A stretch of DNA of 64,000 bases, from assembly GCA_944393245.1 (NCBI GenBank), contig CALXZM010000003.1, forward strand, positions 14,151-78,150, read 5' to 3'. The DNA is from an uncultured Alphaproteobacteria bacterium. Its GTDB lineage: Bacteria; Pseudomonadota; Alphaproteobacteria; Rs-D84. Shown in pieces: positions 16,386 through 47,163 of this stretch. The translations under genes and the position numbers were made by a program. The notes below the pieces were generated by a model. It saw nothing but the letters and a program-made list of their open reading frames with translations. It was not told the DNA's origin and ran no database searches. Numbering within the stretch: the stretch's first letter is position 1; every line of letters starts with the position of its first letter.

Positions 16386-16676
16386 TATATGTGAATTAAG
16401 TCGGCACACATGTATATTATGTGGGGTTAACGTAAATGATAATGATGAACAATCTGTATCGTTTTTATTCTGGTGGTTCGCCCGATTGGCCGCCATGCGA
16501 CAAATGTCGTAATGGGGGGGAAACGGGGGATGAAAAATCATCGAAAACGTTGACCGCTGAATATGCTGTTGTGTCAAATGTGGGATAAAGTCTGGGAATT
16601 TTTTCCAGGCTTTTTTTGTATTTGTTAGGAAAAGTCCCAACAGATACATTGCCAAGAAAAAATAAAGGGGGCAACC

Positions 16677-17135
16677 ATGCAATTTAAAAAAACGGTACCG
16701 TATAAACTGAAACGCATAATCCCGATGTTGGGTATTGCGGGCGCATCATTGTTTATGGGCGGCTGCGAGAAAGAAGAACCATTGCGTGATGTAGAATTGC
16801 ATTTTAGTCCCGATAATTATTTTGAGATAAGCTATGAAGACCGTGGTGAATATGGCATTAGTGAATTATCAAAAGCATATGTAAATGAACCGACCGTTGG
16901 TACAATATATCTGGTGCCGGATGGGGATTGGGCAACCTGTAAAACAGATATAATAAATGAAGTACGCAGAAGATATTTAGAGCCATTATTTGACTATTCA
17001 CCAAAGTTTAAGGGCAAAGGCGATTTTAATTTTTATCCTGGTGCCGCATCCCAGGTATCCCAAGACAGTTTATGGTTTGTTAATAAGGGATTCACAATAA
17101 ACAAATATCGTCCATTAAGTGATTATCAACGTTAA
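16677..17135 (+). CDS. Lipoprotein, paralog 1 of a tandem pair (unknown family)
   Basis: Signal peptide with lipobox (ASLFMGG|C). 152 aa. About 65% identical to the next gene. RBS AAGGGGG. Confidence 0.65.
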   Translation: MQFKKTVPYKLKRIIPMLGIAGASLFMGGCEKEEPLRDVELHFSPDNYFEISYEDRGEYGISELSKAYVNEPTVGTIYLVPDGDWATCKTDIINEVRRRYLEPLFDYSPKFKGKGDFNFYPGAASQVSQDSLWFVNKGFTINKYRPLSDYQR

Positions 17136-17163
17136 AAAATCCATTAAGCATAAGGAGTAAAAC

Positions 17164-17622
17164 ATGAAATTCACAAAAACGGTACCGTACAAACTGAAAC
17201 GCATAATCCCGATGTTGGGTATTGCGGGCGCATCATTGTTTATGGGCGGATGTGAAAAGGAAAAGCCATTGCGCGATGTGGAATTGCATTTTAATCGTGA
17301 TGATTTTTCTACAATAGTATATCAAGACCGGGGGGAAATTTTCATTAGTGAATTAGCAAAAGCATATGCAAATGATCCGACGGTTGGTACCATATATCTG
17401 ATACCTGATGGCGAGTGGGGTACCTATGTTGCCATTAGTATAAGTGATATGCGTCAAACTTTTTTGGAGCCAATGTTTAATTATTCGCCAAAATTTAAGG
17501 GCAAAGGCGATTTTAATTTTTATCCTGGTGCCGCATCAAAAATACCACAGGATAGTTTGTGGTTTGTCAGCAAGGGTTTTACAATAAACAAATATCGCCC
17601 ATTAAGTGATTATCAACGTTAA
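17164..17622 (+). CDS. Lipoprotein, paralog 2 of a tandem pair (unknown family)
   Basis: Identical N-terminal 30 aa and lipobox, and conserved C-terminus SPKFKGKGDFNFYPGAAS...GFTINKYRPLSDYQR. RBS AAGGAG. Confidence 0.65.
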   Translation: MKFTKTVPYKLKRIIPMLGIAGASLFMGGCEKEKPLRDVELHFNRDDFSTIVYQDRGEIFISELAKAYANDPTVGTIYLIPDGEWGTYVAISISDMRQTFLEPMFNYSPKFKGKGDFNFYPGAASKIPQDSLWFVSKGFTINKYRPLSDYQR

Positions 17623-17625
17623 AAA

Positions 17626-17650
17626 ATCCGGCATAATGCCGGATTTTTTA
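17626..17650 (+). terminator. Intrinsic terminator after the lipoprotein pair (TCCGGC-ATAAT-GCCGGA + T6)
   Basis: GC-rich stem followed by TTTTTT. Confidence 0.6.
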
Positions 17651-17757: not shown

Positions 17758-18957
17758 ATGAGAAAGATTTTTTTCACACTATTATGTATATGTATCTTTA
17801 ACACCGGCGCAATCGCCGAGTTTGTGACCGATTGCACAATGGATGAAAATGGTAACTGTTCCGAGGGATGTGAACCCAATAATAAGGGTACCACCTGCTT
17901 GTTATGCCAACCCGGTTCTTATAAATCGGGTAATAATAAAAATGCGTGTACACAATGTGTTTTCCCAGCTGGTGCAATATACAAGGAAAATAATCAATCC
18001 GGATTGATCACAGCGTGTGAATGGACTGCAACATGTACAGAGGGGCAATATTGGGTTAACGGTAGTTCGGAATCCGGTTCGGATACATTTGGTTGTACCG
18101 CGTGTCCAGGCAATTATGGACCAATGGAGGGGAGTGGGGAATTAAGTGTAAGTGGCAGTGGATACACAGCATCATCTGATATAACAAGTGGTGATGTTAA
18201 TAACAGATGCGATGCCAATGTTATAACATTGCTGTTGCACAAAAATATTGACCTGAGTGACACTATGTATGCAGATCATGATGTGAAGGCCAAATATGGG
18301 GTGGGATTTAAAATCCACGACGATGATGATGATTGGGCTGAAACGATAAATGGGGCAATGCAACCAAATAAGAAAATTATTCAATTTAATGGGTATAACT
18401 CTGCAAGTGCGTGTAATGCTGATATGTATTTTGATACACGTGGGAAATTACAACAAACTTGGGATGCTTTGTTTGGTTTGGGAAATCCTGCAAATTTATA
18501 TGCGTGCTATACAACGTCAGAAGTTACAATAAATTATTTTGACCCAGGTGATGCAACAGAACCATGGCGTACGGATACGGTTGGGATTGATAATGGCTTT
18601 GTGTATAATGTGGTGGATTATGGTGGAACGTATGAAGCTTCTGGACAAGTGTTTTTATCATATACATGCAATACAGGGGATGGGGGATCGTGCGGGAGTG
18701 CGCAACCGGGCAATCCGTTGCGGATTTTAGTGATAGATGCGACAGAAATAAATTTGGTGGCGCAGTTTGGTGCCTGTCCAGCTGGGTCTTATTGTACAGG
18801 TGGTAATAAAAAACCGTGTCCCGCCGGAACAACCAGTGATGCTGGGTCCCAAACGGTTCGTGATTGTTATATGGTTGCTGGGGAAAATGGAACGCAGTTT
18901 TGTGATGTTAATGGATGTTTTACTTTACCGGGTACTGGTAATATTGCATACGAATAA
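17758..18957 (+). CDS. Secreted Cys-rich protein with ephrin-receptor/TNFR-like (GCC2/GCC3-type) CxxCxxGxY repeats
   Basis: Signal peptide MRKIFFTLLCICIFNTGAIA. Repeats CLLCQPGSYKSGNNKNACTQC, CTACPGNYGP and CPAGSYCTGGNKKPCPAGTTS fit the C-x2-C-x2-G-x-Y...C-x2-C pattern of eukaryotic ephrin-receptor-like Cys-rich domains. Also an Asp-rich stretch HDDDDDW. Confidence 0.55.
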   Translation: MRKIFFTLLCICIFNTGAIAEFVTDCTMDENGNCSEGCEPNNKGTTCLLCQPGSYKSGNNKNACTQCVFPAGAIYKENNQSGLITACEWTATCTEGQYWVNGSSESGSDTFGCTACPGNYGPMEGSGELSVSGSGYTASSDITSGDVNNRCDANVITLLLHKNIDLSDTMYADHDVKAKYGVGFKIHDDDDDWAETINGAMQPNKKIIQFNGYNSASACNADMYFDTRGKLQQTWDALFGLGNPANLYACYTTSEVTINYFDPGDATEPWRTDTVGIDNGFVYNVVDYGGTYEASGQVFLSYTCNTGDGGSCGSAQPGNPLRILVIDATEINLVAQFGACPAGSYCTGGNKKPCPAGTTSDAGSQTVRDCYMVAGENGTQFCDVNGCFTLPGTGNIAYE

Positions 18958-19559: not shown

Positions 19560-19940
19560 ATGAAAAAACTGTTACAGAAATTCGGTGTCGCTGGTATCGT
19601 TGTTTTGGCGGGTGGGGCCGCTGCATTGGCGGCCGGTCCCGCTGGTGTTGGGGTAGATCAATCCGGATTATGCGCACTGATTGGACAAATGCAGGGTGTG
19701 TTTAAAATTTTGCGTACATTGGCGTTTGTTGGTGCGGCGTTCATTATCGCTGGATGGGCGTGGGGTTATATTTCCAGTGGCAAGTTTGAAATGGAAGATT
19801 TGCGTAAAAAGGGTACCGGTATGCTGGTCGGGTTCGTTTTGTTATTCGGTATCGGTATAGTGTTACAGTTCTTCCTGTCGTCGGCCGGTTTGGAATTGAT
19901 TGGCTGCCAGGATGTGATTTTGAACTGGGGCAATGTGTAA
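19560..19940 (+). CDS. VirB2/TrbC-like type IV secretion pilin candidate (orphan)
   Basis: 126 aa. Long signal peptide, then two hydrophobic helices separated by a short charged loop (GLCALIGQMQGVFKILRTLAFVGAAFIIAGWAWGY / GMLVGFVLLFGIGIVLQFFL). Size and topology match the VirB2/TrbC family. No other T4SS genes lie nearby. Confidence 0.45.
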   Translation: MKKLLQKFGVAGIVVLAGGAAALAAGPAGVGVDQSGLCALIGQMQGVFKILRTLAFVGAAFIIAGWAWGYISSGKFEMEDLRKKGTGMLVGFVLLFGIGIVLQFFLSSAGLELIGCQDVILNWGNV

Positions 19941-19952
19941 TATAAGATAAAA

Positions 19953-19989
19953 AACGGGGCGACCGTTTGGTCGCCCCGTTTATTTATTT
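19953..19989. terminator. Bidirectional intrinsic terminator (AACGGGGCGACC-GTTT-GGTCGCCCCGTT)
   Basis: 12-bp perfect stem flanked by A-run and T-run. Sits between the convergent genes ending at 19940 and 19996. Confidence 0.7.
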
Positions 19990-19995
19990 GAATTT

Positions 19996-20931
19996 TTATC
20001 TTAAACTTTGTTTTGCAAATTTATTTATAAATTTTCGTTCCATTTTCTTTAATTCACCAGTTAGTTGGGAAATTGACTTTTGGGATATGTCCTGTTCCGG
20101 GGGACGGTTTGTTTGCTGAATCATTTTTACGCGGTTGTTTATTAATTCTGTGTACAGGATTTCTGTGAATTTGTTGAAATTCATGTTCGGGTTTTCGTCC
20201 AGTTTGGATATGGCGCGATTTAACGCATTCCTGCGCGCCAGTAATGAATGAACGCCCATATAATCATATATTTTGCCACGAATGTTATAGTAATCTTTTA
20301 TTGTATTTATGTCCGATGTGTAAAAAAATGCGCGGTGTAACATGTTATTAAATTGGCGCATGTTTGCATTGTTTCTGTGTGCGATGCCGTTTATTATTTT
20401 GTTTGATTGTGTCAGGGCGTTGCGCTGATAAATTCGGGCGAATTTATATGACATGTTATATAATTCTGTGAATTTTATGCCGGGATTCATAAAGTATAAT
20501 TGGGCAAATATCATTCGGCCCCATGGTTGTAATATTTTCCAACATGCATATCTGGTCAATTTGGCGTCTGGGCCATTTTTACGCAATGTGTTGCCAAATA
20601 TGCTGTTGATTATGTAATCATGATTGATTTTTACAGCATGGTCGGTATAGAAAGATTCAAATGTTTTTGGTTGTGCAATGCCGTTTGGTGTTTGGGGATA
20701 AACTGATTTAAAATCTGTTGGATGAATGTTTTCTAAAACAGTATCCATTATATTGTCATGTTTGCCCACATATGATTCACCAAATAAATTATACAAATCC
20801 GAAAACAACCAATATTCTGTATCGTTTAATTCAGTATCGGTTGGAAATAATGTCGGTTGAATATTTTCGTTTACACGATGTTTTGTGCTTTGCAGGATTC
20901 TGTACGTTGATTCATATATTTTTGATGCCAT
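19996..20931 (-). CDS. DinD/Bro-N-like protein (DNA-damage-inducible protein D homolog; phage antirepressor-type N-terminal domain)
   Basis: 311 aa. EYWLFSDLYNLFGESYVG...LTRYACWKILQ resembles the Bro-N core of E. coli DinD (EFWSARDLAPLLDY...SRYACYLVVQ). The C-terminal IYDYMGVHSLLARRNALNRAISKL resembles DinD ILDHMGSTELAANLFRATQTEEKL. The 4-bp gap to the upstream RHH gene indicates an operon. Confidence 0.5.
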   Translation of the reverse strand: MASKIYESTYRILQSTKHRVNENIQPTLFPTDTELNDTEYWLFSDLYNLFGESYVGKHDNIMDTVLENIHPTDFKSVYPQTPNGIAQPKTFESFYTDHAVKINHDYIINSIFGNTLRKNGPDAKLTRYACWKILQPWGRMIFAQLYFMNPGIKFTELYNMSYKFARIYQRNALTQSNKIINGIAHRNNANMRQFNNMLHRAFFYTSDINTIKDYYNIRGKIYDYMGVHSLLARRNALNRAISKLDENPNMNFNKFTEILYTELINNRVKMIQQTNRPPEQDISQKSISQLTGELKKMERKFINKFAKQSLR

Positions 20932-20934
20932 TTT

Positions 20935-21189
20935 TTACACCAATGTTTGTTGTTGCGGGGCAGGTTGGGCGTCAGCACTGACCAATGAATACAGGACAGA
21001 TGATATTAGTAATTGGTATGGAACGTGTTGTTGTTCTGCCAGTTTTTTTATGCGTTCCAATATTTGATGGGGAATTCGCATGTTTATGACACTGTCTGAT
21101 TTGTTAAATGCGCGATATGCTGCGTATTCTTTTAACAGTGCTTCGATATTCATTATGAATAATTGCTGCATTACGTTTGGCATACACAA
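20935..21189 (-). CDS. Ribbon-helix-helix DNA-binding protein, BrnA-antitoxin-like
   Basis: The C-terminal half INMRIPHQILERIKKLAEQQHVPYQLLISSVLYSLV matches the BrnA/CopG-type motif (..itiRld.dvlewfk..a...g.gYQtlIN.vLreyv). TTG/ATG start. No BrnT-like toxin ORF is found upstream. Confidence 0.5.
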   Translation of the reverse strand: MCMPNVMQQLFIMNIEALLKEYAAYRAFNKSDSVINMRIPHQILERIKKLAEQQHVPYQLLISSVLYSLVSADAQPAPQQQTLV

Positions 21190-21459
21190 TCTCCTATACC
21201 GACGACAATACCACAGTACTTACAATTGACTATATCACTGTATTGACGCTTGTCAATACATTTGTAATTATGGGTGTCAACACGGCTGTAATTACGGTTG
21301 TGGGGGCGTTTGTGTTGTTTGGTGTGTTGTGGTACAAAAAACATTTATGTGTTGTAAATTTTTGTCTGGTTTTAGTGCTGTGGTGGGCGCGATTTCTTGC
21401 TTTTTTATGAACATGTGTATAAAATGGTTGTATTCTGATTATGGAAAGGATTTATTGTT

Positions 21460-22779
21460 ATGATTAAAAAGTTTTTTTATGTGTTTATGCTGTGTGCTGT
21501 ATTCAGCGTGCCTGCACGTGCAGAATTAAAGGTTGATATTGTTGCCGGGGCCACTGAACCAGTATCAATCGCGGTTCAAAAATTGGAAACAGTTGGTAAA
21601 GTTAATCCCGATGATGCAAAAATGATACGCGATGTGGTGGATGCTGATTTGAAATCTACGGGATTGTTCAGAATTGTTTCAAGGGATGCGTTGCCTGAAT
21701 TTGTTGAAATGGGAAAAATGCCTGATTTTCAATTATGGTCCGCGGTAAAGGCCCAGGTTTTGGTTCAGGCAAAATTGGCCGCTGAATCCGGGGGACGGTA
21801 TAATTTGGAATTCTATGTTTGGGACGTCAATGGCAAAGAGCAGATAGAGGCACAAAGTTTGGTCGCGTCAAAAAAATCTGCGCGCCGTTTGGCCCATATT
21901 ATGGCAGATGCAATTTATGAACGTTTAACCGGCGAAGTTGGCTATTTTGATACTCAAATTGTTTTTATTGCCGAAAGTGGGCCGGTACAAGATCGCGTAA
22001 AACGTATGGCTATTATGGACCAGGACGGACATGGAATGCGTTATTTGTCAGACGAAGATACTTTCGTTATGTCGCCACATTTTTCGCCGAATATGCAAAC
22101 TGTTGTCTTTCTGTCGTTCAGGGATGATGACCCAATGGTTTGGACGTTGGATTTAGAAACAGGGGAACAGCGTCGTTTGGGACAATTTGGGGGAATGAAC
22201 TTTGCGCCGCGCTTTTCACCAGATGGGACTAAAATCGCATTGTCGTTGGTTAAAAATGGAATTACGCATATATATGAATATGATATTGCGTCAAAAAAAC
22301 TGCGTCAATTGACGTTCGGATATTCTTTGAATACCAGTCCGTCTTATTCCCCAGATGGTAAAAAAATGGCATTTAATTCAGATCGCAGTGGTAATCAGCA
22401 GATTTATATACTGGATTTAGAATCTGGTGATGTTGAACGCATAACGTATGGGGCGGGGCGGTATGCAACACCTGCGTGGTCCCCAGACGGTAATTTTATC
22501 GCGTTTACAAAAATGGCGGATGATACATTCTATATCGGCATTATGGATCCGCGTGGCCGTAATGAAAAAATATTGGCCGGTGGCTGGTATATGGAGGCCC
22601 CATCTTGGGCACCAGGATCACGGCGGTTGGTGTATTATGAAACTGAAAAATCGTTGGACGGTATGGAACGTTTCAGTCATATTCGCAGTGTGGATATAAC
22701 CGGACAAAATATTTATGATATAGAATTGCCTGATGGCGTTTATGGGGTTGAACCGACATGGTCACCAAAATTGCCATAG
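21460..22779 (+). CDS. tolB: Tol-Pal system beta-propeller protein TolB
   Basis: Signal peptide, N-terminal TolB domain, and repeated S(P/W)SPDG beta-propeller blades (FSPDGTKIA, YSPDGKKMAF, WSPDGNFIAF). Confidence 0.85.
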   Translation: MIKKFFYVFMLCAVFSVPARAELKVDIVAGATEPVSIAVQKLETVGKVNPDDAKMIRDVVDADLKSTGLFRIVSRDALPEFVEMGKMPDFQLWSAVKAQVLVQAKLAAESGGRYNLEFYVWDVNGKEQIEAQSLVASKKSARRLAHIMADAIYERLTGEVGYFDTQIVFIAESGPVQDRVKRMAIMDQDGHGMRYLSDEDTFVMSPHFSPNMQTVVFLSFRDDDPMVWTLDLETGEQRRLGQFGGMNFAPRFSPDGTKIALSLVKNGITHIYEYDIASKKLRQLTFGYSLNTSPSYSPDGKKMAFNSDRSGNQQIYILDLESGDVERITYGAGRYATPAWSPDGNFIAFTKMADDTFYIGIMDPRGRNEKILAGGWYMEAPSWAPGSRRLVYYETEKSLDGMERFSHIRSVDITGQNIYDIELPDGVYGVEPTWSPKLP

Positions 22780-23192
22780 GGCGCGTGGTCAAAATACTTT
22801 GTTGGTCTGTGATGTTTGGGGCGGGCGGGGCATGTGCCACGCCCGCAATTGTTGATTATGTTATTGATGGTGATACTTTTGCAGCGCGACTGTTGTTTGA
22901 TGACGGCATAAAAATAAAGGTGCGTGTTCGTGTTGCTGATATAGATACGCCTGAAATAAATGGGATGTGTGAATCTGAAAAAGTTATGGCAAATCGGGCG
23001 CGGGACAGGTTGGTGGAATTAATGCCCGTGGGTACAGTGGTGGAACTGGTTGATATTACAGACGATAAGTATTTGGGACGTATTGATGCAGGCGTCATAT
23101 TGCCTGATGGGCGTAATTTGTCGCGTATAATCACAGACGAAGGACTGGGGCGGTCATATAACGGTGGTAAACGTATGTCGTGGTGTAAATAA
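22758..23192 (+). CDS. Secreted staphylococcal-nuclease (SNase/thermonuclease)-like protein
   Basis: Signal-like N-terminus, then VIDGDTF...VRVADIDTPE...GR motifs of the SNase fold. Overlaps the tolB stop by 22 nt. Start uncertain (alternative ATG at 22812). Confidence 0.6.
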   Translation: MVTKIAIGRVVKILCWSVMFGAGGACATPAIVDYVIDGDTFAARLLFDDGIKIKVRVRVADIDTPEINGMCESEKVMANRARDRLVELMPVGTVVELVDITDDKYLGRIDAGVILPDGRNLSRIITDEGLGRSYNGGKRMSWCK

Positions 23193-32190: not shown

Positions 32191-33816
32191 ATGAAAAAAT
32201 TAACAGCAGGTATTTTTGCAACATTATTGGCCGTTGTTTCGGTCGATGGGGCATACGCCGCAATCGCATCCAAGGGATACGTTGATGAAAAGGTTGGAAC
32301 AGTTACAACTGCACTTGGAAATAAAGCTGATAAAACAGAATTGGGTAATTATGCAACAACAGCAGCCTTGACTTCCGGTTTGGCGGGTAAGTTAGATACT
32401 GAGGGTACGGCTGCAAAAGCTACAGCAGATGCTTCTGGCAATGTAATCACAACAACATATGCAACAAAAACAGAATTAAACGCAGCTGAAAAGATTGCCA
32501 ATCGTGTGACAACGGTTTCTGATGCTTCTGATGATACACATTATCCAACGGCAAAAGCGGTTTGGGACGTTGTTCAGGCCGAAACATCTGACATTGCGTC
32601 CAGTGGTGATTTGAGTGCGTTGACAACGCGTGTCGGTACATTGGAAAAAGCGTCTGCGACACATGCGACAAAGACAGAATTAACAGATGGTCTGGCCGAA
32701 AAATTGGATACTGCAACCGCGGCAACAACGTATGCAACCAAAACGGAATTGGCTGGAAAGCAAGATAAAATTGCCGGTGCACAGTTAGAGGCATTGAATT
32801 CAGGAATTACCGCGGACAAGGTAGAGGCATATGATGGTTATGCCGCACAGATTTCTGGCAAGTTAGACGCTGCGGGTACGGCTGCAAAAGCTACAGCAGA
32901 TGCTTCTGGCAATGTAATCACAACAACATATGCAACAAAAACAGAATTAGGTGCAAAAGCGAATACCGCTGATTTGGGTGCATTGGCAACAAAAGATACA
33001 GTAAGCGCAACTGAAATTGATGCAGATGCAGTTACAACAGAAAAAATCCTGGATGCTAATGTAACAAAAGCGAAATTGGCATCTGATATACAGACATCTT
33101 TGGGTAAAGCGGATTCTGCTTTACAGCAAGCTGATTTGGCGGATTATGCAAAGACTGCAGAGGTAGCAAGTACATATGAAACCAAAGAAAACGCAGCTTC
33201 AACATATGAAACAAAAGCAAATGCTTCTGCAACATATGAAACAAAAGCAAATGCTTCTGCAACATATGAAACAAAAGCAAATGCTTCTGCAACGTATGCA
33301 ACAAAAGAAGAAATTAAAGGTATGGCAACTGATGCAAACCTGGCACTGAAACAGGATAAAACAGATAATTCATTGGAAACAACAAGCAAGACAGTTGTTG
33401 GGGCTATCAATGAAGTAAAGACAACCGCTGACGGTGCAAGCACTGCTGCAAAAGCAGCACAAACTGCGGCTGATTCAAAATTGCCGACCGCCACATATAA
33501 CACCCAGGTTGGTACTGTTTCAGCAGAAAATATGGGAACAACGGCAAAAACGGTTGTGACCGCTATCAAGGAAGTAGCAGGTGAAGCGGAGGCTGCACAA
33601 TCTGCAGCGTCTGCGGCAGATTCTAAAGCTCAGGCAGCACAAAGTGCAGCAGAAGCCGCTGATTCTAAAGCTCAAGCAGCACAAACAACTGCTAATGCAG
33701 CTATCCCAAAAGTAAATGCGGAAGGTAGTGACGGTAAGTACGTTTTGACTGCAACGGCTGCAAATGGCGTTGCTACATACAAATGGGAACTTATCGAACG
33801 TGGGTCTGCTGAATAA
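32191..33816 (+). CDS. Secreted repetitive fibre-like protein (paralog 3)
   Basis: Signal peptide plus AAIASKGYVDEKV. Internal exact 75-bp duplication (DASGNVITTTYATKTEL module), 30-bp tandem repeats (TYETKANASA x4-5), C-terminus ...ATYKWELIERGSAE. Confidence 0.7.
   Translation: MKKLTAGIFATLLAVVSVDGAYAAIASKGYVDEKVGTVTTALGNKADKTELGNYATTAALTSGLAGKLDTEGTAAKATADASGNVITTTYATKTELNAAEKIANRVTTVSDASDDTHYPTAKAVWDVVQAETSDIASSGDLSALTTRVGTLEKASATHATKTELTDGLAEKLDTATAATTYATKTELAGKQDKIAGAQLEALNSGITADKVEAYDGYAAQISGKLDAAGTAAKATADASGNVITTTYATKTELGAKANTADLGALATKDTVSATEIDADAVTTEKILDANVTKAKLASDIQTSLGKADSALQQADLADYAKTAEVASTYETKENAASTYETKANASATYETKANASATYETKANASATYATKEEIKGMATDANLALKQDKTDNSLETTSKTVVGAINEVKTTADGASTAAKAAQTAADSKLPTATYNTQVGTVSAENMGTTAKTVVTAIKEVAGEAEAAQSAASAADSKAQAAQSAAEAADSKAQAAQTTANAAIPKVNAEGSDGKYVLTATAANGVATYKWELIERGSAE
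33172..33321 (+). repeat. 30-bp tandem repeat (about 5 units, 3 perfect) inside paralog 3, encoding TYETKANASA
   Basis: ACATATGAAACAAAAGCAAATGCTTCTGCA repeated head-to-tail. Flanking units are diverged by 3-6 substitutions. Confidence 0.85.
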
Positions 33817-45564: not shown

Positions 45565-46341
45565 ATGAAAAAATTAGTTTTAACATCTTTATTGGCAGTT
45601 TTTGCGGCAACTGGTGCAAACGCGGCAATCAACGATAATCCGTTGTATCGTCCGGACCAGGGACGCTTTTACAGTGTGACGGCGTTGGAATCATCGTCAC
45701 GGTCAACCAATACATATACTTTGGGCGAAGCATTTGGTTATGGTATTACAGACAGATTGGCAGTTGGTTTGGAAACAACCGCGTCAACAGCGAATTGGTT
45801 TGACCAAAATTCTTGGGATACATTTGGTGTTGGTTTGAATTACCGCGTATTTGACGGCGCAAATTGGAAGGCTGATGTATTTGGCTCTTATGGGTTCGGC
45901 GGTGTTTGGCCATATGGCGAAACATTCCTGGGCGAAGGAAATACATTGTATGCATGGACGGTTGGCGCCAGTGTTGGTTATGAAACAGCAGAATGGACAG
46001 TTGCGGGGCACATCGCATATGATTATTTAAATTCAGAATCATTCAACTGGGGTGATGATGGCGTTCATTCTTTGCGCGTTGGTGCCGATGCATTATTTGC
46101 AATGAATACGCAATGGTCATTGGTATTGGGTGCTGAATACCAGATTGATGACATGGGTGATTTGACGAACGAAGACAACCGTGGCACATGGTTGGGTAAA
46201 TTGGGTGTAAACTATAACATTGATGACGCCAAATTCATTGGTGCATATGTTGGTAAAGAAATGAGCCATACACCTAATGCTGGTGAATGGAAAATTGAAG
46301 ACGGCTTTGCATATGGTGTAAAGTTTGGTATTGAATTTTAA
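45565..46341 (+). CDS. Outer-membrane beta-barrel protein (porin-like, unknown family)
   Basis: Signal peptide MKKLVLTSLLAVFAATGANA. Alternating amphipathic strands rich in G/Y/W. C-terminal ...GVKFGIEF. Confidence 0.6.
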   Translation: MKKLVLTSLLAVFAATGANAAINDNPLYRPDQGRFYSVTALESSSRSTNTYTLGEAFGYGITDRLAVGLETTASTANWFDQNSWDTFGVGLNYRVFDGANWKADVFGSYGFGGVWPYGETFLGEGNTLYAWTVGASVGYETAEWTVAGHIAYDYLNSESFNWGDDGVHSLRVGADALFAMNTQWSLVLGAEYQIDDMGDLTNEDNRGTWLGKLGVNYNIDDAKFIGAYVGKEMSHTPNAGEWKIEDGFAYGVKFGIEF

Positions 46342-46386: not shown

Positions 46387-46390
46387 TAGA

Positions 46391-46466
46391 TAACAGAGTA
46401 CAGATAACAGAGAACAGATAACAGAGAACAGATAACAGAGAACAGAGAACAGAGAACAGAGAGCAG
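46391..46466. repeat. Heptanucleotide microsatellite (AACAGAG/AACAGAT, about 11 units)
   Basis: TAACAGAGTACAGATAACAGAGAACAGATAACAGAGAACAGATAACAGAGAACAGAGAACAGAGAACAGAGAGCAG. Lies between the OMP terminator and the str-operon promoter. Confidence 0.85.
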
Positions 46467-46791: not shown

Positions 46792-47163
46792 ATGCCAACA
46801 GTAAATCAACTGATTCGGAAGCCGCGTAAAAAGGTTGTTGTTAAATCAACAGCGCCGGATATGATGGCGGCACCGCAAAAACGTGGTGTTTGTACACGTG
46901 TGTACACAACCACGCCGAAAAAACCTAATTCGGCCCAGCGTAAGGTGGCCCGTGTAAAACTGGCCAATGGTCGTGAAGTTACGGCATATATCCCTGGCGA
47001 AGGGCACAATCTGCAGGAACACAGTGTTGTTATGATTCGTGGCGGCCGTGTAAAGGACTTGCCGGGTGTTAAATATCACATTATCCGCGGTGTTTTGGAT
47101 ACCAAGGGTGTGGAAAGCAGAAAGCAGGGGCGTTCTTTGTATGGTGCAAAGGTCGCTAAATAA
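46792..47163 (+). CDS. rpsL: 30S ribosomal protein S12
   Basis: [12 protein letters not shown]...[11 protein letters not shown] highly conserved. Confidence 0.95.

What the first reader, a model, noticed from the sequence alone, without database searches (positions are those of the whole stretch)
19996..21189. Two-gene operon: RHH (BrnA-antitoxin-like) DNA-binding protein followed by a DinD/Bro-N-like protein. Possible TA-like or mobile-element-derived regulatory module
The upstream 84-aa ORF ends with a BrnA/CopG-type ribbon-helix-helix motif (MRIPHQILERIKKLAEQQHVPYQLLISSVLYSLV) but lacks the expected BrnT partner. Instead, 4 bp downstream it is coupled to a 311-aa protein. That protein's N-terminal half resembles the Bro-N/KilA-N-type domain of E. 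coli DinD (EYWLFSDLY...RYACWKILQ) and its C-terminal block (IYDYMGVHSLLARRNALNRAISKL) matches DinD. DinD homologs and Bro-N proteins are typical of prophages or SOS regulons. Pairing with a small RHH protein in a toxin-antitoxin-like arrangement is unusual and could be an uncharacterised addiction or defence module, or the last remnant of a prophage regulatory region.
Basis: partly seen in the sequence, partly recalled or inferred. Interest (0 to 1): 0.6.

Follow-up and report, generated by a model that had tools for sequence, protein, structure and literature searches.

The report
RHH regulator operon with DinD-like passenger
The two genes are real and co-transcribed, but they are a fixed chromosomal locus of small-genome gut Alphaproteobacteria, not a mobile toxin-antitoxin pair: the small DNA-binding protein is an ultra-conserved core gene behind an array of 12-bp repeats, and the DinD-like gene is a fast-evolving passenger that is often lost.

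Summary
Both ORFs exist on the minus strand and form one operon: a sigma-70 promoter (21256->21229), the RHH gene (21183->20935, 82 aa), a 3-nt gap, the 311-aa gene (20931->19996) and a hairpin terminator. The small protein matches Pfam CopG_antitoxin (PF12441) above threshold. The large one is a collinear but very divergent DinD homologue (hhalign 97.3% to E. coli DinD).

The toxin-antitoxin, mobile-element and prophage readings are not supported. The locus sits beside tolB in every relative, all uncultured "Candidatus Enterousia"-like gut Alphaproteobacteria with roughly 1-Mb genomes.

- **RHH gene:** present in essentially all relatives. Mean pairwise identity is 83% and dN/dS is 0.00-0.04. 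Its sequence is the same with or without the partner.
- **DinD-like gene:** present in only 34 of 77 scorable species, always directly behind the RHH gene. It is vertically inherited, with about 10-fold higher dN than TolB, and shows at least 11 gain/loss events, most simply clean losses.

New here: the RHH promoter lies inside a phased 12-bp repeat array that spans the -35, the -10 and the 5'UTR. The array varies between species in 12-nt steps.

Best reading: a cooperative RHH autorepressor with a role of its own, which also controls an accessory DinD-family DNA-binding protein. No biochemistry was tested.

The parts
21189..21320 (-). Phased array of 12-bp repeats, the putative RHH operator array. 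Nine well-formed units lie at 21296->21189 (CGTAATTACAGC, CGTGTTGACACC, CATAATTACAAA, TGTATTGACAAG, CGTCAATACAGT, GATATAGTCAAT, TGTAAGTACTGT, GGTATTGTCGTC, GGTATAGGAGAT). Two or three degenerate ACA-phased units lie upstream. The unit consensus is nGTAnTTACAnn, with a palindromic core GTAATTAC.
   Evidence: Autocorrelation is 0.50 at lag 12, 0.56 at lag 24 and 0.49 at lag 36, against 0.254 +/- 0.04 in 2000 shuffles. Phased conservation of units -5 to +5 holds across 77 species, and the distance from the -35 unit to the ATG is 65, 77, 89-91 or about 101 nt, i.e. steps of 12. TRF finds period 24 at 21251-21301, and the 24-nt direct repeats D1 appear. That the RHH binds this array is inferred, not shown.
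21229..21256 (-). Sigma-70-type promoter TTGACA-16 nt-(TG)TATAGT, built from junctions of the repeat units. The palindrome TGTATTGAC/GTCAATACA (21239-21260) overlaps the -35 hexamer.
   Evidence: The promoter scan scores 11 of 12 with an extended -10. The palindrome is I5. The region is nearly invariant across 78 species.
21191..21195 (-). Shine-Dalgarno sequence AGGAG, 7 nt upstream of the RHH ATG.
   Evidence: Sequence reading. Conserved as GTATAGGAG in most species.
20935..21183 (-). RHH gene (82 aa): an N-terminal helix (about aa 4-26, lineage-specific and invariant), a C-terminal ribbon-helix-helix (aa about 31-71) and a variable tail.
   Evidence: PF12441 scores 37.3 bits against a threshold of 28 over aa 27-66. 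The start is conserved. Homologue clusters: 291; the 120 best listed are 68-95% identical over 83-99% of the query. 44 columns are invariant. dN/dS is 0.00-0.04 with dS of about 1 or more. The AF2 monomer model has helices 4-26, 39-52 and 56-71 at low confidence (pLDDT 61), as expected for an obligate dimer.
19996..20931 (-). 311-aa divergent DinD-family protein. It has an N-terminal extension, a degenerate Bro-N-like alpha/beta domain (about aa 36-135, acidic, pI 5.9) carrying a clade-specific insertion, and a basic helical DinD C-domain (aa 136-311, pI 10.2).
   Evidence: NF008573 E 1.3e-8. phrog_8036 6e-15. PADLOC PDC-S13 5.9e-15. hhalign to E. coli DinD 97.3%. Full-length collinear alignment with DinD and Bro-N-positive homologues; family-wide invariant residues are C130, F147, R170 and R267. 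Intermediate homologues carry Pfam Bro-N. AF2 model pLDDT 89.8, pTM 0.85. pI values.
19952..19981 (.). Bidirectional intrinsic terminator hairpin (13-bp stem, 9 G-C pairs), shared with the convergent membrane-protein gene at 19560-19940.
   Evidence: Terminator scan on both strands. The only Rfam near-hits in the region are generic matches to this hairpin.

Best explanation
This is a lineage-specific chromosomal operon of 'Candidatus Enterousia'-like gut Alphaproteobacteria.

- **RHH protein.** The 82-aa CopG/BrnA-class protein most likely binds cooperatively, as a row of dimers, to the phased 12-bp repeat array. The array covers the -35, the -10 and the 5'UTR of its own strong promoter, so binding would tightly autorepress the operon. 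This step is inferred.
- **A role of its own.** The RHH gene and its array are kept almost unchanged in species that lack the second gene. The RHH therefore has a function independent of its partner. The best guess is control of the adjacent tolB/SNase genes, or a structural nucleoprotein role at this site.
- **DinD-like protein.** The 311-aa gene is a vertically inherited, fast-evolving and repeatedly lost accessory gene that rides on this promoter. Translation is probably coupled, given the 3-nt gap and the lack of its own Shine-Dalgarno sequence. By homology it is a DinD-family protein with a degenerate Bro-N domain and a basic helical domain. Its most plausible activity is binding DNA or nucleoprotein filaments, as E. 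coli DinD does in removing RecA filaments, possibly in a conflict or defence setting.
- **What it is not.** It is not a classical addiction module, and it is not a prophage relic.
For: Shown:
- Operon anatomy: promoter, RBS, 3-nt gap, single terminator.
- Family assignments.
- Identical synteny in every locus examined.
- 171 GTDB species genomes encode the RHH. All are Enterousia-like or unnamed gut/rumen Alphaproteobacteria, and one has a circular chromosome of 958,618 bp.
- The DinD-like gene is present in 34 of 77 scorable loci. Where it is absent, the RHH stop lies about 70 nt from the convergent neighbour, and no pseudogene remnant is found in 44 of 45 loci.
- On a TolB tree, presence is patchy, with at least 11 state changes.
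- DinD-like identity tracks TolB identity (Spearman 0.88). Mean pairwise identity is 32% for the DinD-like protein, 81% for TolB and 83% for the RHH.
- dN/dS is 0.10-0.25 for the DinD-like gene, 0.015-0.06 for TolB and 0.00-0.04 for the RHH.
- RHH sequences are identical or nearly so between species with and without the partner.
- The 12-bp periodicity, the 12-nt-step length variation and the conservation of the array do not depend on the partner.
- RHH-tolB linkage survives a rearrangement in outgroup lineages, where the order is RHH->SNase->tolB in one direction.

From the literature:
- BrnA has a C-terminal RHH and controls brnTA transcription (PMC11980606).
- RHH proteins such as ParG assemble on roughly 100-bp arrays of degenerate repeats (PMC3130281).
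- DinD is listed among the proteins that ensure RecA filament removal (PMC4849656, citing Uranga 2011).
Against: - No binding, expression or phenotype data exist. That the RHH binds the array is inference from proximity, conservation and precedent.
- The RHH's partner-independent function is unknown. The 24-bp core operator occurs only once in the 64-kb window and once per fetched locus, so no regulon was found.
- The DinD C-domain has no solved structure and no known chemistry.
- The fast evolution, patchy loss and PADLOC PDC-S13 hit would also fit a toxin or defence effector.
- dS is near saturation, so the dN/dS values are approximate.
Confidence: 0.6

Rival explanations
1. A type II toxin-antitoxin or abortive-infection-like defence module. 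The DinD-like protein would be a toxin or effector, and the RHH its antitoxin, neutralising it by direct binding as well as repressing the operon.
For: - The arrangement is a small upstream RHH of an antitoxin Pfam family followed by a larger gene 3 nt downstream.
- There is a PADLOC defence-candidate PDC-S13 hit, E 5.9e-15.
- The partner evolves fast and is lost repeatedly, as conflict genes often are.
- Over-expressed Bro-N proteins inhibit growth and cause filamentation (PMC4257102).
Against: - The RHH is retained under very strong purifying selection, and is identical in sequence, in 43 of 77 species that lack the partner.
- There is no antitoxin-toxin co-evolution: RHH identity averages 83% while the partner averages 32%.
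- The locus is single, fixed and vertically inherited, in genomes of about 1 Mb, among housekeeping genes.
- The RHH's N-terminal region does not match the family profile's N-terminal part.
- The experimentally tested Bro-XreB look-alike pair was not a bona fide TA (PMC4257102).
Confidence: 0.2
2. The RHH and its repeat array form a centromere-like or nucleoid-organising complex, comparable to ParG/parH, ParR/parC or omega with its heptads, rather than a simple repressor. The DinD-like gene would be incidental cargo.
For: - Nine to eleven phased repeats over about 110-130 bp enclose the promoter, which is the same layout as RHH centromere-binding proteins and their sites (PMC3130281, PMC3074162).
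- The module shows extreme conservation as a core element, independent of the downstream gene.
- The site is single-copy within the sequence available.
Against: - No ParA- or ParM-type NTPase gene is adjacent in any locus.
- One lineage has an AAA_33 kinase downstream, which is not a partition ATPase.
- PF12441 proteins are not known centromere binders.
Confidence: 0.1
3. The pair is the last remnant of a prophage or other mobile-element regulatory region.
For: - DinD and Bro-N families are common in phages, and phrog_8036 matches at 6e-15.
- The DinD-like gene has lower G+C (34.8%) than the window (42.8%).
Against: - The chromosomal site is the same in all relatives, and the gene's divergence tracks TolB divergence (Spearman 0.88).
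- The flanks hold no phage, integrase or transposase genes and no nearby tRNA.
- tblastn finds no hit in phage or plasmid collections.
- The RHH is a core gene of the clade.
Confidence: 0.03

Closest known systems
BrnT/BrnA toxin-antitoxin system (Brucella abortus); Pfam PF12441 CopG_antitoxin
   Same: A small protein with a C-terminal ribbon-helix-helix of the same Pfam family. BrnA controls transcription of its own operon (PMC11980606). Some orthologues here are auto-annotated as 'BrnA antitoxin family' or 'CopG family antitoxin'.
   Different: - There is no BrnT (BECR-fold) gene.
- In brnTA the toxin gene comes first. Here nothing precedes the RHH, and a DinD-like gene follows it.
- The N-terminal 26 residues do not match the family profile.
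- The NCBIfam BrnA model scores 18 bits against a cutoff of 60.
- The RHH is a core, ultra-conserved gene that persists without any partner.
[quoted passage not shown]
   Same: The two are homologous and collinear over the full length. The Bro-N motif EYW..S/A..L..LLGY, the LSRYAC motif, Q.YF, R...R, D.MG..SL.A and the C-terminal PE..(I)..I..L motif are all shared.
   Different: - Identity is only about 20%.
- The NCBIfam equivalog score is 34.5 bits against a cutoff of 242.
- Pfam Bro-N is not detectable.
- This protein has an extra N-terminal helix and a 25-40-aa insertion.
- There is no LexA box.
- It is expressed from an RHH operon, whereas E. coli dinD is monocistronic between yicC and yicG.
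Bro-XreB / XreA-Ant TA-like pairs of pneumococcal prophage MM1 (Chan et al. 2014, PMC4257102)
   Same: A Bro-N-domain protein sits next to a small DNA-binding regulator in a TA-like layout. Experiments showed those pairs are not bona fide TA systems, which parallels the evolutionary evidence here.
   Different: - Those pairs lie in a prophage.
- The regulator is an HTH (Xre) protein, not an RHH.
- The gene order is the reverse (bro, then xreB).
- The C-terminal domain is ORF6C rather than the DinD C-domain.
RHH proteins that assemble on repeat arrays: ParG/parH (TP228), ParR/parC, omega of pSM19035
   Same: An RHH protein is encoded next to an array of many short phased repeats, about 100 bp long, that overlaps its own promoter (PMC3130281, PMC3074162; the ParR and omega details are from my own knowledge).
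   Different: - The locus is chromosomal.
- The unit is 12 bp, with a GTAATTAC-like core.
- There is no partition NTPase.
- The RHH belongs to the antitoxin-type PF12441 family.
PADLOC candidate defence system PDC-S13
   Same: The profile matches aa 113-304 with E 5.9e-15.
   Different: - PDC-S13 is a single-gene candidate with no experimental support that I could find. A full-text search returned no papers.
- This locus lies among housekeeping genes, not in a defence island.
DdrC of Deinococcus radiodurans (PDB 7QVB, 8U0G)
   Same: - Both have an alpha/beta N-domain with a beta-hairpin plus a helical C-domain.
- In both, the N-domain is acidic and the rest is basic.
- Both DdrC and E. coli DinD belong to DNA-damage responses.
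   Different: - Identity is 7% and the rmsd is 9 Å.
- The Foldseek E-value (0.27) is not significant.
- No sequence-profile link was found.
- This is a resemblance in fold only, not established homology.

Membership tests
BrnA / CopG_antitoxin (PF12441) | Match to the Pfam PF12441 profile above the gathering score (C-terminal RHH) | tested here: met
   37.3 bits against a threshold of 28, aa 27-66 against profile positions 37-76 of 79.
   PF14384 is not listed even at E up to 10. NF047399 scores 18.2 bits against a cutoff of 60.
BrnTA toxin-antitoxin system | An adjacent BrnT (PF04365, BECR-fold) toxin gene in toxin-then-antitoxin order | tested here: not met
   Upstream is a 276-nt non-coding spacer followed by the divergent tolB gene. 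Downstream is a DinD-like gene. The T/A order of brnTA is from PMC11980606.
DinD (NCBIfam NF008573 equivalog) | Score above the curated equivalog cutoff | tested here: not met
   34.5 bits against a cutoff of 242. The protein is a homologue, not an equivalog.
DinD family (homology) | Significant profile-level, collinear similarity to E. coli DinD | tested here: met
   hhalign probability 97.3%, E 1.8e-11. A full-length collinear alignment shares the motifs. The profile search finds 439 relatives, which grade into classical DinD-like proteins.
DinD family | N-terminal Bro-N domain (PF02498) | tested here: inconclusive
   Not detected in the window protein. It is present in E. coli DinD and in 6 of 10 intermediate homologues, and the first Bro-N motif aligns.
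DinD family | SOS regulation through a LexA box in the promoter | tested here: not met
   No GTTC-N7-GTTC (up to 1 mismatch) and no CTGT-N8-ACAG in 21190-21459.
DinD family | Inhibition or removal of RecA filaments | not testable with these tools
   This is a biochemical property of E. coli DinD only (PMC4849656, citing Uranga 2011).
Type II toxin-antitoxin module | Compact bicistronic operon with a small DNA-binding protein | tested here: met
   3-nt gap, one promoter and one terminator.
Type II toxin-antitoxin module | The two genes are inherited and lost together, and the antitoxin co-evolves with the toxin | tested here: not met
   The RHH stands alone in 43 of 77 scorable species, with unchanged sequence. 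RHH identity averages 83% against 32% for the partner.
Type II toxin-antitoxin module | Mobile or variable genomic location, often in several copies | tested here: not met
   One fixed syntenic site. No paralogue in the window. No plasmid or phage matches.
Type II toxin-antitoxin module | Toxicity of the large protein and its neutralisation by the small one | not testable with these tools
   This needs expression experiments.
PADLOC PDC-S13 defence candidate | Profile match plus location in a defence island | tested here: inconclusive
   The profile matches at E 5.9e-15, but the neighbours are housekeeping genes. No literature on PDC-S13 was found.
RHH centromere-binding / iteron-binding proteins (ParG, ParR, omega) | An RHH gene next to an array of many phased short repeats that overlaps its promoter | tested here: met
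   12-bp periodicity more than 6 SD above shuffles, 9-11 units, and 12-nt-step variation between species.
RHH centromere-binding / iteron-binding proteins (ParG, ParR, omega) | A partner partition NTPase (ParA/ParF or ParM) in the same cassette | tested here: not met
   None is present in any locus. L052 has an AAA_33 kinase instead.
Prophage remnant | Flanking phage, integrase or att features, or similarity to phage genomes | tested here: not met
   The only phage link is a PHROG profile match.

The most novel reading that the evidence does not exclude
The RHH and its phased repeat array of about 110-130 bp form a conserved higher-order nucleoprotein device with a housekeeping role in these roughly 1-Mb genomes. 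It could be an 'orphan antitoxin' domesticated as an essential regulator or insulator of the tolB region, or a centromere-like site. The slot behind it would then hold conflict genes under very tight repression: the fast-evolving DinD-like protein in many species and an AAA_33 kinase in one. Separately, the DinD family may share the DdrC fold, which would link two enigmatic DNA-damage-response proteins that are thought to be unrelated.
Probability: 0.15. Interest if true: 0.7.

Novelty: new variant of a known kind. Interest (0 to 1): 0.42.

Why it matters
- **Annotation.** Antitoxin-family annotation can mislead. Orthologues are auto-annotated as 'BrnA antitoxin family' or 'CopG family antitoxin'. 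Here the protein is a vertically inherited core gene, as conserved as TolB, in a whole clade of uncultured gut bacteria with reduced genomes, and it has no toxin.
- **A testable cis-element.** The locus supplies a clean candidate: an array of 12-bp units that expands and contracts unit by unit. This can be used to study cooperative RHH-DNA assembly.
- **DinD biology.** It offers a natural presence/absence series for a DinD-family gene. The molecular role of that family is poorly understood even in E. coli.
- **DinD-DdrC link.** If the structural resemblance between DinD and DdrC holds, it would give the first structural handle on DinD.

Tried and rejected
- **Sequence search of solved structures.** Neither protein nor the A1 profile gave a meaningful hit.
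- **Foldseek against PDB and BFVD.** No match at E of 0.001 or below. The afdb50 library was unavailable.
- **tblastn against phage and plasmid collections.** No match.
- **LexA-box searches.** Neither the alphaproteobacterial nor the E. coli type occurs in the promoter region.
- **Rfam.** Only sub-threshold generic hits on the terminator hairpin.
- **Search for further operator sites.** The 10-mer is not enriched in the window (104 matches against 99.8 expected). A 24-bp PWM finds only the RHH promoter in the window and in 80 loci. No regulon could therefore be defined.
- **Search for decayed DinD-like remnants** in species lacking the gene. None in 44 of 45 loci.
- **Paralogues in the window.** None.
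- **AF2 of the RHH as a monomer.** Low confidence (pLDDT 61), so only the secondary structure was used.
- **Literature.** Nothing on PDC-S13. The first DinD search was swamped by 'Clavien-Dindo' papers.
- **Context of classical Bro-N/DinD homologues.** The contigs were too short to be informative. One distant family member (P0236) has no RHH upstream and sits next to an SMC_N/AAA_23 ATPase, so the pairing appears to be specific to this clade.
- **Replication origin.** Rejected. GC skew is positive across the whole window, and the repeats do not resemble DnaA boxes (sequence reading).
Full report
**Observation**

The two ORFs are on the minus strand at 20935..21189 (84 aa from a TTG) and 19996..20931 (311 aa). 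Comparison with relatives shows that the small gene starts at the ATG at 21183 (MPNVMQQLF..., 82 aa). An AGGAG at 21195-21191 lies 7 nt upstream of that ATG. Its TAA stop (20937-20935) is separated from the next ATG (20931) by 3 nt, and the second gene has no Shine-Dalgarno sequence of its own.

A near-consensus sigma-70 promoter, TTGACA-16-(TG)TATAGT, lies at 21256->21229. A 13-bp-stem hairpin terminator at 19952-19981 follows the second gene. The two genes therefore form one transcription unit.

**Family assignments**

- **Small protein.** It matches Pfam PF12441 (CopG_antitoxin) at 37.3 bits against a gathering score of 28, through its C-terminal RHH (aa 27-66). PF14384 is not matched, and the NCBIfam BrnA model reaches only 18 bits against a cutoff of 60.
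- **Large protein, direct searches.** It has no Pfam match, not even Bro-N. It does hit NCBIfam DinD (E 1.3e-8, 34.5 bits against a cutoff of 242), phrog_8036 (6e-15) and the PADLOC candidate PDC-S13 (5.9e-15), all over aa ~113-304.
- **Large protein, profile level.** A profile of 25 orthologues aligns to E. coli DinD with 97.3% probability. A joint alignment is collinear from the first Bro-N motif (EYWLFSDLYNLFG against EQWSARQLGKLLGY) to the C-terminal PE..I..L motif. C130, F147, R170 and R267 are invariant across the family.
- **Bro-N.** E. coli DinD and 6 of 10 intermediate homologues carry Pfam Bro-N. The protein is thus a very divergent full-length DinD-family member with an N-terminal extension and a clade-specific insertion.

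**Organism and context**

The best homologues are all from uncultured gut and rumen Alphaproteobacteria. Several are named Candidatus Enterousia, and one has a circular chromosome of 958,618 bp.

In every locus fetched through the DinD-like protein, the pair sits at the same site. On one side are ftsE, ftsX, DUF218, an acyltransferase, an SNase-like gene and tolB. On the other are a convergent small membrane protein, FBP aldolase, efp, ppa and dnaN. In the one locus where no RHH gene had been called, the ORF is there. There are no integrases, phage genes or nearby tRNAs. There is no tblastn match in phage or plasmid collections.

**Asymmetric co-conservation**

A scan of GTDB species genomes with the RHH found 171 genomes, and the best 80 loci were analysed.

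- **RHH.** It lies next to tolB in nearly all loci.
- **DinD-like gene.** It follows the RHH in only 34 loci. It is absent in 43, and 3 loci are cut by contig ends.
- **Clean absence.** Where the gene is absent, the RHH stop lies about 70 nt from the convergent neighbour. No decayed remnant is detectable in 44 of 45 loci.
- **Close relatives.** Two very close relatives (L024 and L025; RHH 96-99% and TolB 89-91% identical to the window) lack the gene.
- **Patchiness.** On a TolB tree, presence is patchy and needs at least 11 changes.
- **Vertical inheritance.** DinD-like identity tracks TolB identity (Spearman 0.88), so the gene is inherited vertically and the changes are most simply losses.
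- **Rates.** Mean pairwise identity is 32% for the DinD-like protein, 81% for TolB and 83% for the RHH. When TolB is at least 90% identical, the DinD-like protein is about 53% identical. dN/dS is 0.10-0.25 for the DinD-like gene, 0.015-0.06 for TolB and 0.00-0.04 for the RHH, with dS near saturation. RHH conservation is therefore at the protein level.
- **No dependence on the partner.** RHH sequences are identical or nearly so in species with and without the partner.

This is not the behaviour of an antitoxin tied to a toxin.

**Repeat array**

The 130 bp upstream of the RHH ATG are strongly conserved across the clade. They are built from 12-bp units.

- **Periodicity.** Autocorrelation is 0.50, 0.56 and 0.49 at lags 12, 24 and 36, against 0.254 +/- 0.04 for shuffles.
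- **Units in the window.** Nine well-formed units run from 21296 to 21189, with consensus nGTAnTTACAnn and palindromic core GTAATTAC. Two or three degenerate ACA-phased units lie upstream.
- **Overlap with expression signals.** The -35 hexamer is the junction of two units. A 9-bp perfect inverted repeat (21239-21260) overlaps it. The -10, the 5'UTR and the Shine-Dalgarno sequence all lie inside units.
- **Unit-wise variation.** Across 77 species the distance from the -35 unit to the ATG is 65, 77, 89-91 or about 101 nt, so units are gained and lost whole.
- **Independence and uniqueness.** The array is equally conserved where the DinD-like gene is absent. The 24-bp core occurs only once in the window and once per fetched locus.

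RHH proteins that coat arrays of short repeats overlapping their own promoters are well known, for example ParG on parH (PMC3130281; ParR and omega from my own knowledge). I therefore infer cooperative binding and autorepression, which remains untested.

**Further context**

- In outgroup lineages the order is RHH->SNase->tolB in one direction, so RHH-tolB linkage survived a rearrangement. This hints that tolB/SNase may be an RHH target.
- In one lineage an AAA_33 kinase follows the RHH 19 nt downstream. In another lineage the first sizeable downstream ORF, 136 nt away, is a methyltransferase.
- A distant DinD-like protein from another taxon has no RHH upstream and sits next to an SMC_N/AAA_23 ATPase.
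- No LexA box is present, and no Rfam family is found apart from terminator-like noise.

**Structure**

The AF2 model of the 311-aa protein is confident (pLDDT 89.8, pTM 0.85). It has an alpha/beta N-domain with a long beta-hairpin (aa 99-126) and a helical C-domain. The N-domain is acidic (pI 5.9) and the C-domain is basic (pI 10.2).

**Interpretation**

The best-supported reading has four parts.

- The RHH is a cooperative autorepressor with a role of its own.
- It also controls a dispensable, fast-evolving DinD-family protein.
- That protein probably binds DNA or nucleoprotein filaments. E. coli DinD is listed among the proteins that remove RecA filaments (PMC4849656).
- Its evolutionary pattern and the PDC-S13 hit are also compatible with a conflict or defence role.

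The classical TA reading retains some probability, about 0.2. The layout fits, and Bro-N proteins can be toxic. However, the one tested look-alike pair, Bro-XreB, was not a true TA (PMC4257102), and the co-inheritance and co-evolution criteria fail here. A prophage-remnant origin is essentially excluded.

**Novelty and score**

Both protein families are known. The new elements are:

- their pairing;
- the status of a BrnA-class RHH as a toxin-less core gene;
- the unit-wise variable 12-bp array;
- the presence/absence series of the DinD-like gene.

I rate this a new variant of a known kind, of moderate interest (0.42).

Noticed in passing
window 21189-21320 (and the homologous regions of L017-L096): The RHH promoter and 5'UTR form a phased array of 12-bp units. 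The array changes length between species in exact 12-nt steps (65, 77, 89-91 or 101 nt from the -35 unit to the ATG).
   Followed up: yes
[not shown]
   Followed up: partly
L052 5245-5718; L079 5362-6036: In two species that lack the DinD-like gene, a different gene lies downstream of the RHH gene. L052 has a 157-aa AAA_33 P-loop kinase 19 nt downstream. L079 has a methyltransferase 136 nt downstream. The position behind the RHH may be a variable cargo slot.
   Followed up: partly
L074 4880-7090, L094 (also L068, L089): In outgroup lineages the gene order is RHH->SNase-like->tolB on one strand, not divergent as in the window. RHH-tolB linkage therefore survives a rearrangement, which hints at a functional link.
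   Followed up: partly
window 16676-17629: A tandem duplication with a 487-nt period and 82% identity gives two paralogous 152-aa lipoprotein-like genes (16677-17135 and 17164-17622).
   Followed up: no
window 17758-18957: A 399-aa cysteine-rich secreted protein. An unverified candidate counterpart near the pair in L007 carries an Ephrin_rec_like Pfam domain. That is a eukaryote-like domain in a gut symbiont with a reduced genome.
   Followed up: no
window 46388-46466: An intergenic tandem repeat of a 7-nt unit (AGAGAAC, about 11 copies; 14-nt super-unit, 96% matches) lies between ORFs 45565-46341 and 46792-47163.
   Followed up: no
window 33172-33307: An in-frame 30-nt repeat (4.5 copies, 92% matches) lies inside the 541-aa ORF at 32191-33816.
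   Followed up: no
window 21460-23192: In the window, tolB is followed by a gene for an SNase-like 144-aa protein that overlaps it by 22 nt. The gene upstream of tolB is the divergent RHH gene rather than a tol gene.
   Followed up: no
L102 1005-3813: A distant DinD-like protein (340-352 aa) from another taxon has no RHH upstream. It is followed by a 557-aa SMC_N/AAA_23 ATPase, a context that suggests DNA repair or defence.
   Followed up: no
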